Positions 3,608-34,345 are shown, counted from the stretch's first letter. The stretch: 34,839 nucleotides of DNA from Candidatus Nomurabacteria bacterium (GCA_943349555.1 CALQZK010000001.1:1-34839); one strand, 5' to 3'. Translations and numbers: made by a program. Notes: generated by a model from the sequence alone, not told the origin.

Positions 3608-5143
3608 ATGATCAAGTATTTTATTTACTGTCGAAAATCTAGTGAGGACGAAGAACGTCAAGTTTTGAGTATTCCGGCGCAACTACAAGAATTGCGCGAT
3701 TTCGCCAAGCAAAATTCTCTTTTCGTGGTCAAAGAATATGATGAAAGTAAAACCGCCAAGGAACCAGGGCGAGAGGTTTTTAACGAAATGCTTGGCGAAA
3801 TTGAAAAAGGAAACGCGCAGGGAATTTTAGCTTGGAACCCGGATAGATTAGCTAGGAATAGCATTGATGGTGGCAAGATCATCTATTTTGTGGACACACT
3901 AAAAATTGTTGCGCTAAAATTCCCGACATTTTGGTTTGAAGCGACACCCCAAGGAAAATTTATTTTGAGTGTCGCTTTTGGTCAAGCAAAATATTACACC
4001 GACAATTTAAGAGAAAATATTTTGCGCGGTATTCGCCAAAAGATCCGCCGTGGTGAATTATCAGCAAAAGCCCCTTTAGGATATTTCAACGAACCTCGTT
4101 TGCGAACGATTGAACCTGACAAGAAAACTTTCAACAAGGTGAAAGAATGTTTAGGGGCTTTTGCTACGGGACAATTTACACTCACGGCTATTCAGCGCAA
4201 AATGTTTTCTCTCGGCTTGGTTGGCGCGAGAAGTGGGAAACCGCTTGTCCTCGCCTCGGTAGAGCATATTTTGAAAAATCCTTTTTACTACGGTCATTTC
4301 CAGTACCGAGGCGAGATACATCAAGGTTCGCATAAACCAATGATTTCAAAGAAACTTTTTGACAAAATCCAAGAAGCACTTGTCGCGAACGGAAAGCCCC
4401 GCAAAAAGCGAGAAGAGAAAGGTTTGTTATACAAAGGATTTGCGGTGTGCGGTGAGTGCGGCTACGCGATAACTGCCGAGAAGAAGATAAAGAAAAGTGG
4501 GTTGGTGTATCACTACTACCACTGTACTTTCAAAAGCCGCACTCAAAAATGTTCGCAAACTCGCTTTTTGCGGGAAGAAGAATTGACGCGACAAGTGCAA
4601 GACATGGTTCAAAAAGTTTCTTTGTCTGATGAGTGGCGAGACGCATATCTCAAAAAATTGGAAAGCGAAAACGCCGATGTCCGCTACTCATCAAAACTTT
4701 TCGTTCAAAATCTCAAAAACGATATTTCCGCCATTTCAGCGCGCCTCTCTCGCCTCACAGACGCGTATCTAAACGAAGCACTGGAGCTTGTGGAGTATCA
4801 AGAGCGCAAGAACGCGCTGATGGCGGAAAAGAAGACGCTGGAAGAGAAATTGAGCAATTTTGAACGCAAAGGCAATCATTGGCTCGAACTCATGCGAAAC
4901 TGGATTTTAGGGGCCAACCAAGCGGGAAATCTCATTAAACAAGAAAATCTTCCGGGAATGAAAGATTTTCTTGTAGACATCGGCTCGAACCGCCGCGTAG
5001 CGGAGGGAATGCTCTTGGCGGATTTCAAAATGCCTTGGCGGGACTTGGCGGAAACATCAGTCCGAGCCCGCGCCAGAGGCGCGGGCGAGGTCAGTCTTTC
5101 TTCAAATTCAGAATTGTGGAGGGTAAGAGATTCGAACTCTTGA
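3608..5143 (+). CDS. Large serine recombinase (resolvase domain + recombinase domain + zinc ribbon + coiled coil)
   Basis: YCRKSSEDEERQ is the catalytic Ser region. Also present are NPDRLARN, the Cys cluster CGECGY...YYHCTF...C, and a long coiled-coil-like stretch. The last roughly 52 codons lie in IR-B and in tRNA-Ser, so the true C-terminus is uncertain. Confidence 0.9.
   Translation: MIKYFIYCRKSSEDEERQVLSIPAQLQELRDFAKQNSLFVVKEYDESKTAKEPGREVFNEMLGEIEKGNAQGILAWNPDRLARNSIDGGKIIYFVDTLKIVALKFPTFWFEATPQGKFILSVAFGQAKYYTDNLRENILRGIRQKIRRGELSAKAPLGYFNEPRLRTIEPDKKTFNKVKECLGAFATGQFTLTAIQRKMFSLGLVGARSGKPLVLASVEHILKNPFYYGHFQYRGEIHQGSHKPMISKKLFDKIQEALVANGKPRKKREEKGLLYKGFAVCGECGYAITAEKKIKKSGLVYHYYHCTFKSRTQKCSQTRFLREEELTRQVQDMVQKVSLSDEWRDAYLKKLESENADVRYSSKLFVQNLKNDISAISARLSRLTDAYLNEALELVEYQERKNALMAEKKTLEEKLSNFERKGNHWLELMRNWILGANQAGNLIKQENLPGMKDFLVDIGSNRRVAEGMLLADFKMPWRDLAETSVRARARGAGEVSLSSNSELWRVRDSNS
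4987..5119. repeat. IR-B right arm (reverse complement of 3374..3506)
   Basis: Exact 133-bp match. It carries three CTTGGCGG motifs at 5014, 5034 and 5044. Its outer end overlaps the last 3 nt of tRNA-Ser. Confidence 0.93.
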
Positions 5144-5203
5144 TGCCCTTTCGAGCATACGACGTTTCCAACGTCGCGCAATAGACCGCTATGCGAACCC
5201 TCC
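5117..5203 (-). tRNA. tRNA-Ser(GGA), type II with a long variable arm
   Basis: Hand-folded from the minus strand. The acceptor is GGAGGGT/ACCCTCC, the anticodon stem CGACG/CGTCG with loop TTGGAAA, the variable arm ATGCTC-GAAA-GGGCAT, and the T arm AAGAG-TTCGAAT-CTCTT. Length is 87 nt and no CCA is encoded. Confidence 0.85.
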
Positions 5204-26570: not shown

Positions 26571-26828
26571 AGCCGTTGTCCGGGATTGAACCGGAGACCT
26601 CGTCATTCGCTTACACCTCCTTTTTATGTATATAGGAGGACTAGACTGTATCTTAATCCATTTAGGATTCCCTTGTCAGTCGTTCGAGCGATTTAGATCG
26701 CTACGGTCTTATCCAATGCTACCTTGGACTTTAACCGTGATTCGGGATTCATAACAGTGTTGCCACTGAAATGGGCAGGGGTCATGCGACCCACCAATGA
26801 CGTGCTCTACCAACTGAGCTACAACGGC
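26571..26828 (-). tRNA. tRNA-Thr(GGU) interrupted by a 185-nt intron after position 36
   Basis: Exon 1 (26828..26793) is GCCGTTGTAGCTCAGTTGGTAGAGCACGTCATTGGT. Exon 2 (26607..26571) is AATGACGAGGTCTCCGGTTCAATCCCGGACAACGGCT. Joined, they give a canonical 73-nt cloverleaf with anticodon loop TTGGTAA. Confidence 0.8.
26608..26792 (-). ncRNA. Group I-like intron in the tRNA-Thr anticodon loop
   Basis: The 5' exon ends in U and the intron ends in G. Candidate pairings are P2 CAGTG-GCAA-CACTG, P4 CACGGT/ACCGT, P5 TCCAA/TTGGA, P6 GCGAT/ATCGC, P7 GACTG/CAGTC, P8 AATCC/GGATT and P9 CCTCC/GGAGG. J8/7 reads AAGATA before CAGTC. Confidence 0.62.
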
Positions 26829-26842
26829 ATATCTTGGTTTAA

Positions 26843-26864
26843 CTACCAAGACAGCTACAACGGC
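26843..26864 (-). repeat. Partial duplicate of the tRNA-Thr 5' end (19/22 identity with 26807..26828)
   Basis: ctaccaaGACagctacaacggc compares with ctaccaaCTGagctacaacggc. The copy lies 36 nt upstream of the tRNA gene in the tRNA orientation. Confidence 0.7.
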
Positions 26865-26890
26865 GTATGTACATGTCCGTTGCTATCCTC

Positions 26891-27694
26891 TCACAAATTC
26901 TTCGGCAAAACAACCGTGACCGTCGTTCCTTTATTAAGTTCTGAGGCAATAGATATGCTTCCCCCATGTAGTTCTATCATCTTCTTTGAGGTATATAGCC
27001 CAACTCCGCTCTCGTCCGGCTCAACCATGACTGCATTCTTGCCTCTGTGTAGTCGATCAAAAATGTAGGGCAAATCCTCTGGTGTAATGCCGATACCTGT
27101 ATCTTTGGTGATTATCGTAACCGATGACTGGCTGTCGGAAATATTCACATCCACACTGCCATTTGGAGAATACTTTATGGCATTGTCAATAATGTTAATA
27201 ATGGCTGCTTTAATCTTATTCCTATCAGCATTAATCAGAATGGAAGTCTGCGGGGAAATAAAATTTAATTTGATTTTCTTCTTTACAGTAATGAAATTCA
27301 ATTCCGCGATAATGGACTGGACCATGCCAACGATATCTACGCGTTCCGGATTCAATATGAGAGTGCCTCCTTCGGCCTCAATTGTCTTGAGCATGCCATT
27401 AATGATGCCTATGGCGTCTTTTATACGCTCAAGGCCTGCATCGATAAGGGAAATTGAGTCAGAGGGCAATGAAGTCTCTGATTTAAGCATTTCCAGAGCC
27501 CATTTCACCCCAGAGAGCGGCGTGCGAAGCTGATGCTGTGCCACGCTTAAAAAGTCATTCTTCAGTCGGTCGAGCTGGACCATTTTTCCAAGCTTTTTGG
27601 CGGTCTCTTCTCTCTGCTTTTTTTCGTAAAGGGCGTATAGGAAAAAAATAATTACTAGGACAGATAAAGCGATGGCATAGTAGGAATTTTCCAT
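26891..27694 (-). CDS. Orphan sensor histidine kinase
   Basis: TM segment, H-box AQHQLRTPLSG, N-box NIIDNAIKYS, G1 KDTGIGI, G2 GVGLY. Confidence 0.85.
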   Translation of the reverse strand: MENSYYAIALSVLVIIFFLYALYEKKQREETAKKLGKMVQLDRLKNDFLSVAQHQLRTPLSGVKWALEMLKSETSLPSDSISLIDAGLERIKDAIGIINGMLKTIEAEGGTLILNPERVDIVGMVQSIIAELNFITVKKKIKLNFISPQTSILINADRNKIKAAIINIIDNAIKYSPNGSVDVNISDSQSSVTIITKDTGIGITPEDLPYIFDRLHRGKNAVMVEPDESGVGLYTSKKMIELHGGSISIASELNKGTTVTVVLPKNL

Positions 27695-32736: not shown

Positions 32737-34345
32737 ATTTGAAATAATCCACGAGCAGCTTCCGCTACCCGTGCCTTGTTACGACTTACTCCCTGTTATT
32801 GAGCTTACCTTAGGCCGCAGTAAATGCGGATTTCGGGTACTCCCAACTCCCTTGAGTTGACGGGCGGTGAGTACAAGACTCGAGAACGTATTCACCGCAG
32901 TATAGCTGACCTGCGATTACTAGCGATTCCAACTTCATGGAGTCGAGTTTCAGACTCCAATCCGAACTGGGGCTATTTTTATGGATTTGCTCCACATTGC
33001 TGTCTTGCATCCCATTGTAATAGCCATTGTATCACGTGTGTAGCCCAGGGTATCAAAGGGACATGCTGATCTGGCGTCATCCTCCCCTTCCTCCCAGCCC
33101 GAAACGAACAACGTTCGTTTCGAAGTAGAAAGATAAAAGTAAAAAGTTTTAAAGTAAGGAAAAATTTGCAAAGCAAATTTTTCCCACTCCGTACTTTCAA
33201 CTCTCAACTTTCAACTCGAAACGCGTTCCGCGTTTTGGGCTGGGCAGTCTCGTGTGACACTTGTAACACACGATGAGGGTTTCGCTCGTTTCCCCACTTA
33301 AGGGAACAACTCAAGCCACGAGCTGACGACGACCATGCATCACCTGCTGAACAGTCTTGCGAGGGCTCCAGTTTCTTGGAGCTTTCAGTTCAGTTTCAAA
33401 CCCTGGTAAGGTTCTTCGTTTATCATCGAATTAAACCACATGATCCACCGCTTGTGCGAGTCCCCGTCTATTCCTTTGAGTTTTAATCTTGCGATCGTAT
33501 TTCCCAGGCGGTTCATTTAACGCGTTAGCTACGCCACACAGAGGGTCGATACTCCGTATAGCTAATGAACATCGTTTAGGGCATGGACTACTGGGGTATC
33601 TAATCCCATTCGCTACCCACGCTTTCGTGCCTCAGTGTCAATAATGTGCCAGTGTGCTGCCTTCGCATTTGGTGTTCCCCTAGATATCAACGGATTTCAC
33701 CCCTACACCTAGAGTTCCGCACACCTCTCACATATTCAAGCATTGCCGTTTCGTATGCCGCCCCCGGGTTGAGCCCGGGTCTTTGACATACGACTAACAA
33801 CGCCACCTACGCACCCTTTACGCCCAGTGATTCCGGATAACGCTTGAGGCCTCTGTATTACCGCTGCTGCTGGCACAGAGTTAGCAGCCTCTTATTCATG
33901 TGCTAACATCAATTACTTTCTCACACATAAAAGGTTTTTACACCCCGAAGGGCTTCATCAACCACGCGGCGTCGCTCCCTCACACTTTCGTGCATTGGGG
34001 AAGTTTCTTGACTGCAGCCACCCGTAGGTGTTTGGACCGTGTCGCAGTTCCAATGGTGGGGGTCAGCCTCTCAGCTCCCCTAGGCGTCATCGTCTTGGTA
34101 GGCCGTTACCCTACCAACTAACTGATACCTCGCAGGCCGTTCTAGAAGCGATAAATCTTTACTCTTTCGAGACCATCGTGTATTAGCCCACCTTTCGATG
34201 GGTTGTTCACGACTTCTAGGTACGTTCCCACGTGTTACTACCCCGTTTGCCACTGTTCATATATAAATATAAGAACCGTTTGACTTGCATGCCTTATCCA
34301 CGCCGCCAGCGTTCATCCTGAGCTAGGATCAAACTCTACTAAAGA
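32737..34345 (-). rRNA. rrs: 16S rRNA gene (ends approximate) with a 136-nt insertion in helix 40
   Basis: On the minus strand: AGAGTTTGATCCTAGCTCAG near 34337, GTGCCAGCAGCAGCGGTAA, GGATTAGATACCCCAGTAGTCC, CTTGTACTCACCGCCCGTCA, and AAGTCGTAACAAGG followed by helix 45 with a GGAA loop. Confidence 0.95.
33101..33236 (-). other. Structured 136-nt insertion / expansion segment in the 16S helix 40 loop
   Basis: It is flanked by CCCAGCCC (33093..33100) and GGGCTGGG (33237..33244), where helix 40 normally closes on a tetraloop. It contains three perfect hairpins and no ORF. Confidence 0.8.

What the first reader, a model, noticed from the sequence alone, without database searches (positions are those of the whole stretch)
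26571..26828. tRNA-Thr(GGU) split by a 185-nt group I-like intron after anticodon position 36
The two exon halves join into a canonical 73-nt tRNA-Thr with anticodon loop UUGGUAA.

The intervening 185 nt has these group I hallmarks:
- The last exon base is U, and the last intron base is G.
- There is a GNRA-capped hairpin (CAGTG-GCAA-CACTG).
- Pairings can be assigned to P4, P5, P6, P7 (GACTG/CAGTC), P8 and P9.
- The segment AAGATACAGTC closely resembles the conserved J8/7-P7 sequence. In the Tetrahymena intron this is AAGAUAUAGUC, quoted from memory.

Known bacterial tRNA group I introns are in the tRNA-Leu(UAA) and fMet genes of cyanobacteria and the tRNA-Ile(CAU) and tRNA-Arg(CCU) genes of proteobacteria. 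I do not know of one in tRNA-Thr.

At 185 nt it would be shorter than the Azoarcus intron, which is about 200 nt and usually cited as the smallest self-splicing example.
Basis: partly seen in the sequence, partly recalled or inferred. Interest (0 to 1): 0.72.

Follow-up and report, generated by a model that had tools for sequence, protein, structure and literature searches.

The report
Self-splicing intron inside a threonine tRNA gene
A threonine tRNA gene on the minus strand is interrupted right after its anticodon by a compact 185-base group I (self-splicing) intron, one member of a large conserved family found in the same tRNA across the ultra-small Patescibacteria, so it is real but not unique.

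Summary
On the minus strand, 26828-26793 (36 nt) plus 26607-26571 (37 nt) join into a canonical 73-nt tRNA-Thr(GGU). The 185 nt between them (26792-26608) follow U36 and end in G.

Rfam RF00028 gives only 14.8 bits (threshold 50). The support comes from comparison:
- A scan for tRNA(GGU) genes broken after position 36, plus a scan for the intron core, gave 153 distinct homologues.
- Nearly all named source genomes are Patescibacteria (CPR) lineages; one is the cultured Niastella populi.
- Every full-length core-motif hit lies in tRNA-Thr(GGU).
- P1, P2, P3 (pseudoknot), P5, P6, P8, P9 and the 2-bp P9.0 before the terminal G all covary. P4, P7 and the joining segments are nearly invariant.
- The L2 tetraloop type switches in step with the P8 receptor type, as in the Azoarcus L2-P8 contact.

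Family introns are 169-254 nt, so 185 nt is not the shortest, but many are below the 206-nt Azoarcus intron.

The kind is known: same site as Azoarcus tRNA-Ile, and group I introns in CPR tRNAs were noted in 2021 and in a 2025 preprint I could not read. Verdict: new member of a known kind, moderate interest.

The parts
26793..26828 (-). 5' exon of tRNA-Thr(GGU), tRNA positions 1-36, ending in the anticodon GGU
   Evidence: Sequence. The spliced product is called tRNA-Thr(ggt) by ARAGORN. Rfam tRNA model gives a partial match of 22.6 bits.
26608..26792 (-). 185-nt group I intron with no ORF
   Evidence: Family covariance model R1 scores 194.7 bits (the window was in the training set). Covariation is shown. 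RF00028 gives only 14.8 bits.
26571..26607 (-). 3' exon of tRNA-Thr(GGU), positions 37-73. No CCA is encoded.
   Evidence: The anticodon stem 26802-26798 with 26605-26601 covaries at 5 of 5 pairs.
26774..26795 (-). P1 hairpin. Exon GGU (26795-26793) pairs with the internal guide GCC (26776-26774), with a U26793-G26776 wobble at the 5' splice site. The inner extension is GGGUC/GACCC.
   Evidence: G-C, G-C and U-G are invariant in 62 of 62. The two inner pairs covary.
26750..26773 (-). P2 stem with GNRA tetraloop L2 (GCAA, 26763-26760)
   Evidence: 9 of 9 pairs show compensatory changes. L2 is GNRA in 60 of 62.
26744..26746 (-). P3 5' strand (CCC), pairing with 26670-26672 (GGG); a pseudoknot with P7/P8
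   Evidence: 98.4% paired; 2 of 3 pairs have changes on both sides (CUC/GAG, CCU/AGG).
26703..26738 (-). P4-P5 domain: P4 ACGGUU/GACCGU (26738-26733 with 26708-26703), J4/5 AAAG, P5 UCCA(A)/(U)UGGA, J5/4 UAA
   Evidence: P4 is almost invariant. P5 covaries at 4 of 4 pairs.
26687..26702 (-). P6 hairpin AGCGAU-CUAA-AUCGCU
   Evidence: 5 of 6 pairs show compensatory changes.
26677..26681 (-). P7 5' strand GACUG, preceded by J6/7 CGAAC. It pairs with 26644-26648 (CAGUC). G26681-C26644 is the presumed guanosine-binding pair.
   Evidence: Invariant in the family. It aligns to the GACUA/UAGUC of the Rfam group I consensus. The G-binding role is inferred.
26670..26672 (-). P3 3' strand GGG, preceded by J7/3 ACAA
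26655..26669 (-). P8 hairpin AAUCC-UAAAU-GGAUU, the simple-helix receptor type that goes with a GYRA L2
   Evidence: 4 of 4 pairs covary. The P8 type tracks the L2 type 62 of 62.
26644..26654 (-). J8/7 AAGAUA plus P7 3' strand CAGUC
   Evidence: J8/7 is AAGAUA in 53 of 62. It matches the Rfam consensus AAGAUAUAGUC.
26640..26641 (-). P9.0 5' strand (GU in J7/9), pairing with 26609-26610 (GC) just before the terminal G
   Evidence: 97.6% paired, with 19 and 17 double changes. Slid controls give 0-50%.
26616..26639 (-). P9 hairpin CCUCCU...AGGAGG with an A/U-rich loop
   Evidence: 5 of 6 pairs show compensatory changes.
26608..26608 (-). Terminal guanosine (omega-G) at the 3' splice site
   Evidence: G in 62 of 62 genome homologues (none was dropped by my filter) and in 98 of 98 metagenome homologues.

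Best explanation
This is the functional tRNA-Thr(GGU) gene of a Patescibacteria (CPR) bacterium. Its proteins most resemble those of Saccharibacteria-labelled MAGs. The gene is interrupted between anticodon base U36 and A37 by an ORF-less, compact group I intron of the bacterial tRNA (IC3-like) type.

Inferred mechanism, which is the standard group I pathway:
1. The precursor folds so that exon GGU pairs with the guide GCC in P1, placing the U36-G wobble at the 5' splice site.
2. The P3-P8-P7 and P4-P6 domains form the core, braced by the L2 (GCAA) to P8 contact.
3. A free guanosine bound at the G-C pair of P7 attacks the 5' splice site.
4. P9.0 then places the terminal G26608 in the same site.
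5. The freed U36 3'-OH attacks the 3' splice site, giving the mature anticodon loop UUGGUAA.

Shown here: the sequence, the conserved fold, the covariation and the family distribution. Inferred: catalysis, and that this is the cell's working GGU isoacceptor.
For: - The joined exons give a canonical tRNA-Thr(ggt) in the window and in 62 of 62 family members.
- Genome set of 62 sequences: 94.9% of cells are paired, against 75.4% in shuffles and 35-45% when partners are slid. 36 of 53 pairs change on both sides, including the P3 pseudoknot. RNAalifold recovers P1, P2 and P4-P9 on its own.
- Independent metagenome set of 96 distinct sequences: 95.5% paired, and 40 of 50 pairs covary.
- P9.0 covaries.
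- U-1 paired to G is invariant, and the terminal G is present in 160 of 160.
- L2 is GNRA in 60 of 62. NAAA loops always accompany an 11-nt-receptor-like P8 (GCUAA...UAUGC; 25 of 25). GYRA/GGAA loops always accompany a plain helix (37 of 37).
- All 98 full-length core-motif hits in metagenomes sit in tRNA-Thr(GGU).
- No intact tRNA-Thr(GGU) lies beside any intron-bearing locus; only CGU and UGU isoacceptors do.
- The J8/7-P7 segment aligns to the Rfam group I consensus.
Against: - Rfam RF00028 is far below threshold: 14.8 against 50 bits in the window, and no hit at E <= 1 in 8 homologous loci.
- P4 and P7 never vary, so they are supported only by conservation and analogy.
- P3 has only 3 demonstrable pairs.
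- There are no RNA data and no splicing assay.
- The window cannot show whether a second, intact tRNA-Thr(GGU) exists elsewhere in the genome.
- The covariation counts treat related sequences as independent.
Confidence: 0.88

Rival explanations
1. The locus is a dead tRNA gene disrupted by an inserted, decaying sequence, and no mature tRNA is made.
For: Default ARAGORN and the Rfam tRNA and group I models do not call it at threshold.
Against: The exons and intron core are conserved, with compensatory changes, across 153 distinct sequences from many CPR classes. All spliced products are canonical tRNA-Thr. No intact GGU copy lies nearby in any locus.
Confidence: 0.03
2. It is a group I intron by descent but is too reduced to splice alone. 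It would depend on a protein cofactor or chaperone in vivo.
For: It is very compact (185 nt; the family goes down to 169 nt). P3 is only 3 bp. L9 is not a GNRA tetraloop in the window.
Against: All core elements, P9.0 and a covarying L2-P8 clamp are kept. No candidate cofactor gene is linked to it in the window. From my own knowledge, the comparably small Azoarcus intron self-splices robustly.
Confidence: 0.08
3. The split gene is a different tRNA with another junction, as in ARAGORN intron mode: tRNA-Arg(GCG) with the intron after position 34, or tRNA-His(GUG).
For: ARAGORN -i reports these readings for the same 260-nt span. The junction is formally ambiguous by sequence alone.
Against: - Those junctions put G at -1 and A at the intron's 3' end, against the group I rules.
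- Across the family the GGU before the intron is invariant.
- The three bases read as the anticodon in that alternative vary (GCG, ACG, GUG, AUG), and they covary with J7/9 as P9.0.
Confidence: 0.01

Closest known systems
Azoarcus sp. pre-tRNA-Ile(CAU) group I intron (subgroup IC3)
   Same: - It sits in a bacterial tRNA anticodon loop.
- The intron lies directly 3' of the third anticodon base, so the last exon base is the anticodon's U in a short exon-guide P1. That the Azoarcus 5' exon ends CAU is from my own knowledge.
- It is ORF-less and has only P1-P9, with no large peripheral domains.
- L2 docks on P8 (Azoarcus: PMC2813881; here).
   Different: - The host tRNA is Thr(GGU).
- It is 185 nt against 206 nt.
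- The junction sequences differ: J6/7 CGAAC and J7/3 ACAA, against GUAGA and AGAC-type in the IC3-like introns seen in L012 and L062.
- P3 is only 3 bp, and L9 is not a GAAA tetraloop in the window.
- Rfam RF00028 detects IC3-like tRNA introns (60 bits, L062) but not this family.
[quoted passage not shown] 2021, PMC8172020; Nakagawa et al. 2025 preprint, doi 10.1101/2025.07.03.662931, cited in PMC12641178)
   Same: The same host phylum and the same phenomenon. PMC8172020 states that some CPR tRNAs carry group I introns, which makes them hard to detect.
   Different: I could not read the preprint. I therefore cannot say whether tRNA-Thr(GGU) at 36/37 is listed there. Its title stresses a novel insertion site, and 36/37 is not novel.
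Cyanobacterial and plastid tRNA-Leu(UAA) group I intron, and the Agrobacterium tRNA-Arg(CCU) intron
   Same: They are ORF-less group I introns in the anticodon loops of bacterial tRNAs, and they are conserved across a whole lineage (own knowledge).
   Different: The host tRNA differs. The tRNA-Leu site is 34/35. They are longer, about 250 nt for Anabaena (own knowledge, not tested here).
Group I introns with the same core in phage-like contigs (IMG/VR: L123, L124, L125)
   Same: They share the core CGAACGACUGACAAGGG...GAUACAGUCUA. R1 scores them 85-128 bits.
   Different: They interrupt phage DNA that looks protein-coding, not tRNA. Endonuclease-like ORFs lie next to or inside them; I judged those ORFs by eye only.

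Membership tests
Group I intron | The 5' splice site follows a U that forms a U-G wobble with an internal guide sequence in P1 | tested here: met
   U26793-G26776. The U-G pair is present in 62 of 62 and 93 of 93, flanked by two invariant G-C pairs, and the inner P1 pairs covary.
Group I intron | The last intron nucleotide is G (omega-G) | tested here: met
   G26608. G in 62 of 62 and 98 of 98; no candidate was lost to my filter.
Group I intron | Core helices in the order P3-P4-P5-P5'-P4'-P6-P6'-P7-P3'-P8-P8'-P7'-P9, with the P3/P7 pseudoknot | tested here: met
   P3, P5, P6, P8 and P9 covary. P4 and P7 are invariant and complementary.
Group I intron | P9.0: two bases just before omega-G pair with J7/9 | tested here: met
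   97.6% paired, with 36 double-change cells against 13.5 in shuffles.
Group I intron | A guanosine-binding G-C pair in P7, with conserved J6/7 and J8/7 | tested here: inconclusive
   GACUG/CAGUC and AAGAUA align to the Rfam consensus GACUA/UAGUC and AAGAUA. They are invariant. Invariance cannot prove the role.
Group I intron | Reaches the Rfam RF00028 gathering score (50 bits) | tested here: not met
   14.8 bits, E = 0.44 on 800 nt. Nothing at E <= 1 on the whole window or on 8 homologous loci. The same model also misses the three phage-contig introns that share this core. I read this as a gap in the model, not as evidence against the fold.
Group I intron | GTP-dependent self-splicing by two transesterifications | not testable with these tools
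   This needs in vitro transcription and splicing, or RNA sequencing.
Bacterial tRNA anticodon-loop group I introns (IC3 type, e.g. Azoarcus) | Sits in the anticodon loop of a bacterial tRNA; ORF-less; about 200-250 nt | tested here: met
   Position 36/37, 185 nt, no ORF.
Bacterial tRNA anticodon-loop group I introns (IC3 type, e.g. Azoarcus) | L2 tetraloop docks on a P8 receptor | tested here: met
   L2 type and P8 type co-switch in 62 of 62 sequences. The Azoarcus contact is described in PMC2813881.
Bacterial tRNA anticodon-loop group I introns (IC3 type, e.g. Azoarcus) | L9 GNRA tetraloop docks on a P5 receptor | not tested
   The window's L9 is a 12-nt A/U-rich loop. Many members have GAAA or GAAG next to the 3' strand of P9, but I made no pairing or co-variation test.
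Bacterial tRNA anticodon-loop group I introns (IC3 type, e.g. Azoarcus) | IC3 core sequence signature | tested here: inconclusive
   The family model R1 gives only 43.7 bits to the Azoarcus-like tRNA-Thr intron of L012, about 20 bits to the tRNA-Phe introns, and none to the L062 tRNA-Met intron. The family is therefore a distinct sub-lineage. No subgroup-specific models were available.
Protein-spliced (bulge-helix-bulge) tRNA introns of archaea and eukaryotes | Canonical position 37/38, a bulge-helix-bulge at the exon-intron borders, and usually a short intron | tested here: not met
   The intron lies at 36/37, is 185 nt long, and has a conserved ribozyme core. The host is bacterial (16S rRNA).

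The most novel reading that the evidence does not exclude
This would be the first described example of a Patescibacteria-wide, tRNA-Thr(GGU)-specific lineage of group I ribozymes, with four notable properties:
- It includes the smallest natural group I introns (169-185 nt, against 206 nt for Azoarcus).
- It interchanges two alternative L2-P8 tetraloop/receptor modules.
- It shares its core with phage-borne introns.
- It is invisible to Rfam RF00028 and to default tRNA finders, so tRNA-Thr(GGU) is systematically missing from CPR genome annotations.
Probability: 0.3. Interest if true: 0.55.

Novelty: new member of a known kind. Interest (0 to 1): 0.4.

Why it matters
- Annotation. Standard pipelines miss this gene, so CPR genomes appear to lack tRNA-Thr(GGU). 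That distorts completeness estimates and inferences about decoding capacity. The family model built here, or a new Rfam seed, would fix this.
- Ribozyme biology. More than 150 natural variants of a 169-230-nt group I ribozyme, with clear covariation and a natural swap of tetraloop/receptor modules, are good material for studies of minimal ribozymes and RNA folding. Until now such work has leaned on the 206-nt Azoarcus intron.
- Evolution. One host tRNA and one site across many CPR classes recalls the ancient cyanobacterial tRNA-Leu intron. The presence of the same core in phage-like contigs and in a Bacteroidota isolate points to some horizontal movement.

None of this changes the known mechanism or kind.

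Tried and rejected
- Rfam at gathering and E-value thresholds, on the window and on homologues: uninformative for this family.
- blastn of the locus against cultured phage genomes: only the tRNA 5' half matched, and no intron relatives appeared.
- Promoter and terminator scan around the gene: nothing above shuffles.
- Fetching the Azoarcus sequence from the paper library by sequence string: no hit. The helix-by-helix comparison with Azoarcus therefore rests on the IC3-like introns found in L012 and L062 and on my memory.
- Reading the 2025 preprint on CPR tRNA group I introns: it is not held. Three further literature searches found no mention of tRNA-Thr as a host. The supplements of PMC8172020 hold nothing on it.
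- ARAGORN intron mode gives Arg or His readings. I rejected these because of the group I splice-site rules and the family covariation.
- Exact taxonomy of the window could not be settled. No close relative was among the fetched loci. Only protein-level similarity to Saccharibacteria-labelled MAGs was found.
- P10 pairing between the 3' exon and the guide: by eye I saw at most one convincing pair, and I did not pursue it.

Full report
**What is in the sequence**

The feature lies on the minus strand.
- Bases 26828-26793 read GCCGUUGUAGCUCAGUUGGUAGAGCACGUCAUUGGU. These are tRNA positions 1-36 and end in the anticodon GGU.
- Bases 26607-26571 read AAUGACGAGGUCUCCGGUUCAAUCCCGGACAACGGCU, which are positions 37-73.
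- Joined, they give a 73-nt cloverleaf that ARAGORN calls tRNA-Thr(ggt), with anticodon loop UUGGUAA.
- From the sequence, this tRNA has G1-C72, C2-G71, G35 and U36. From my own knowledge, these are the usual bacterial threonine identity elements.
- The 185 nt in between (26792-26608) begin right after U36 and end in G.

Default ARAGORN and Rfam at its curated thresholds do not call the gene. ARAGORN in intron mode finds a split tRNA over the same span with a 185-nt intron, but it places the junction wrongly. The precursor folds far better than shuffles (z = -4.73). The minimum-energy fold already shows the tRNA arms and hairpins for P2, P4/P5, P6, P7/P8 and P9.

The Rfam group I model (RF00028) aligns end to end. 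It matches UUAAGAUACAGUCUAG to its AAGAUAUAGUC consensus with high posterior probability. But the score is only 14.8 bits against a 50-bit threshold, with E = 0.44 in an 800-nt search. Nothing is reported at E <= 1 when the whole window is searched.

**Relatives**

I scanned one genome per species for tRNA genes with the conserved D-arm, U33 and GGU, followed by any base except A, which means the gene is broken after position 36.
- A script that then looked for a matching 3' half found 61 loci with a complete split tRNA-Thr(GGU). Their introns are 176-230 nt and end in ...GGUGUAAGCG or close variants.
- Nearly all named sources are Patescibacteria lineages: Saccharibacteria, Paceibacteria, Kaiser-, Wolfe-, Moran-, Uhr-, Peregrini-, Magasanik-, Jorgensen-, Azam-, Nomura-, Portnoy-, Harrison- and Taylorbacteria, and Minisyncoccia. 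A few carry other or unspecific labels.
- One source is a cultured Bacteroidota isolate, Niastella populi CCTCC AB 208238 (L072, 181 nt).
- One MAG labelled Bacillaceae (L012) has a divergent, Azoarcus-like intron at the same site.

A second scan looked for the nearly invariant core GAACGACUGACAARGG...GAUACAGUCUA in metagenome contigs. It also stopped at 120 rows. Of the first 100 loci, 98 gave full-length hits to the family model. All 98 are flanked by (A/U)UGGU on the 5' side and AA(G/U) on the 3' side, so all lie in tRNA-Thr(GGU). Together the two sets hold 153 distinct sequences.

**Structure from comparison**

- On the MAFFT alignment of the genome set (A1), RNAalifold independently predicts the anticodon stem, P1, P2, P4, P5, P6, P7, P8 and P9. 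34 of its 50 pairs show compensatory changes.
- After adding the P3 pseudoknot (CCC 26746-26744 with GGG 26672-26670), 94.9% of cells are standard pairs. Column shuffles give 75.4%, and sliding the 3' partners by 1-3 columns gives 35-45%. 36 of 53 pairs change on both sides.
- P2, P5, P8 and 5 of 6 pairs in both P6 and P9 covary. P3 covaries at 2 of 3 pairs. P4 (ACGGUU/GACCGU) and P7 (GACUG/CAGUC) never vary, so they say nothing either way beyond being complementary and conserved.
- The metagenome set gives the same picture: 95.5% paired and 40 of 50 pairs covarying. That alignment was fitted to the model, and the set was selected by the P7 motif.
- The exon-guide part of P1 (GGU with GCC, including the U-G wobble at the splice site) is invariant. 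The terminal G is present in all 160 sequences.

Two further features are specific to group I introns.
- The two bases before the terminal G pair with the two bases of J7/9 just before P9. This is the P9.0 pairing that positions the terminal G. The combinations seen are mainly GC/GC, AC/GU, AU/AU and GU/AC. They are 97.6% paired, against 0-50% for slid controls.
- L2 is a GNRA tetraloop in 60 of 62, and its type tracks P8 perfectly. All 25 sequences with an NAAA loop (23 of them GAAA) have a P8 carrying GCUAA...UAUGC-like asymmetric motifs that resemble the 11-nt GAAA receptor. All 37 with GYRA or GGAA loops have a plain helix.

The second feature is the signature of the L2-P8 tetraloop-receptor clamp described for the Azoarcus intron (PMC2813881). 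The window has the GCAA plus plain-helix version. Related sequences are not independent events, so these counts overstate the statistical weight. The pattern is nonetheless unambiguous.

**What it is and how it most likely works**

It is a group I intron of the compact bacterial tRNA type, sitting where the Azoarcus tRNA-Ile intron sits, directly 3' of the anticodon. The Azoarcus site is from my own knowledge.

The mechanism is inferred from the established group I pathway.
1. P1 presents the U36-G wobble.
2. A free guanosine bound at the G-C pair of P7 (G26681-C26644, by alignment to the Rfam consensus) cleaves the 5' splice site.
3. P9.0 swaps the terminal G26608 into the same site.
4. The exons are ligated.

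Helix coordinates in the window are given and in the parts list. The gene is probably the working GGU isoacceptor. None of the roughly 180 intron-bearing loci has an intact tRNA-Thr(GGU) nearby, although many have intact CGU or UGU isoacceptors. Whole genomes could not be checked.

**Relation to known families**

The family-specific model R1 finds exactly one copy in the window.
- It scores family members outside the training set at about 195 bits (L098; strain contig L121).
- It gives only 43.7 bits to the Azoarcus-like L012 intron.
- It gives about 20 bits to the tRNA-Phe introns.

Conversely, RF00028 detects an IC3-like intron in a tRNA-Met gene of L062 at 60 bits, but none of the Thr introns. 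The Thr family is therefore a distinct sub-lineage that the curated model does not cover. Its junctions are J6/7 CGAAC and J7/3 ACAA, against GUAGA and AGAU/AGAC in the IC3-like introns. I call it IC3-like on architecture: only P1-P9, no P7.1/P7.2 and an L2-P8 clamp. I could not test the subgroup formally.

**Size**

The window intron is 185 nt. The family spans 169-254 nt, and the 169-172-nt members keep every helix. Azoarcus numbering places the first 3' exon base at 207 (bioRxiv 10.1101/037895). Many members are therefore clearly shorter than the intron usually cited as the smallest; that last point is from my own knowledge.

**Novelty**

The kind has been known since 1992 (Reinhold-Hurek and Shub, cited in PMC4090602). 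Lui et al. 2021 say in passing that CPR tRNAs often carry group I introns. [quoted passage not shown] No open-access paper I could search names tRNA-Thr as a host. I rate it a new member of a known kind, with a substantial chance that the preprint already lists it.

**Source organism**

A 99.6%-identical strain contig comes from ENA assembly ERZ27280297. Window proteins best match loci from MAGs labelled Saccharibacteria: the histidine kinase next to the tRNA at 48% to L108, and GatA at 66% to L111. No close relative was among the fetched loci.

Noticed in passing
L002, L013, L017, L018, L039, L042, L044, L049, L084, L087, L102 (for example L002:2424-2450 onward): This is a second intron family. 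tRNA-Phe(GAA) genes are split by 219-250-nt group I-like introns placed after U33, with junction ACU|GGUUUUCGGUCC...AAG|GAAAAUCC. The introns carry GAUAUAGUCC and a GAAA-capped P9. The spliced exons are called tRNA-Phe(gaa) in 11 of 11. This 33/34 site may or may not be the 'novel insertion site' of the 2025 preprint.
   Followed up: partly
L062:1886-2190 (+): A tRNA-Met(CAU) gene in the same MAG as a Thr intron is split after U33 by an IC3-like intron (GUAGAGACUAGAUGG...AAGGUAUAGUCC). Rfam RF00028 scores it 60.1 bits. One CPR-like genome therefore holds at least two different tRNA group I introns within 3 kb.
   Followed up: partly
L123:4401-4605, L124:3091-3289, L125:2503-2712 (IMG/VR viral contigs): Introns with the same catalytic core as the Thr family (R1 85-128 bits) sit in phage-like DNA that looks protein-coding. 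By eye, L123 lies between polymerase-like ORFs with a possible endonuclease ORF just upstream, and L124 has an endonuclease-like ORF upstream; no domain search was run. Rfam misses them but finds another intron at L123:5099-5361 with 78.5 bits.
   Followed up: partly
L072:5227-5424 (Niastella populi CCTCC AB 208238, contig of 300 kb): A cultured Bacteroidota isolate carries a 181-nt member of the otherwise CPR-centred family (192.9 bits; the spliced product is tRNA-Thr ggt). This suggests horizontal spread and offers a culturable system for testing splicing. I did not verify that the contig is genuinely Niastella beyond its length and its 40% GC.
   Followed up: partly
L012:4071-4305 (MAG labelled Bacillaceae; locus GC 69%): tRNA-Thr(GGU) is split at the same 36/37 site by a 218-nt, GC-rich, Azoarcus-like intron (GUAGAGGCCAGACGGGCGGCACC...) that scores only 43.7 bits with the family model. 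The same site is therefore occupied by a different intron lineage. The taxon label looks odd for 69% GC.
   Followed up: no
window 32737-34344 (-) and L121:2846-5098: The window's 16S rRNA gene is followed by gatA, not by a 23S gene. In the 99.6%-identical strain contig L121, identity drops to 79-87% beyond window position 33096. That 16S also carries an insertion of about 1 kb with a LAGLIDADG_2 ORF that the window lacks. This is either strain-level intron presence/absence plus divergence, or a chimeric 16S assembly in one of the two contigs.
   Followed up: partly
window 5116-5203 (-): ARAGORN calls a tRNA-Ser(gga) here. The Rfam tRNA model reports nothing at this place, even at E <= 1. The call overlaps the end of ORF 3608-5143, and its status is unclear.
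   Followed up: no
window 26724-27068 (+): A 114-aa TTG-start ORF runs antisense across the intron, the 5' exon and the end of the histidine kinase gene. It is most likely spurious, but gene callers could annotate it in place of the tRNA.
   Followed up: no
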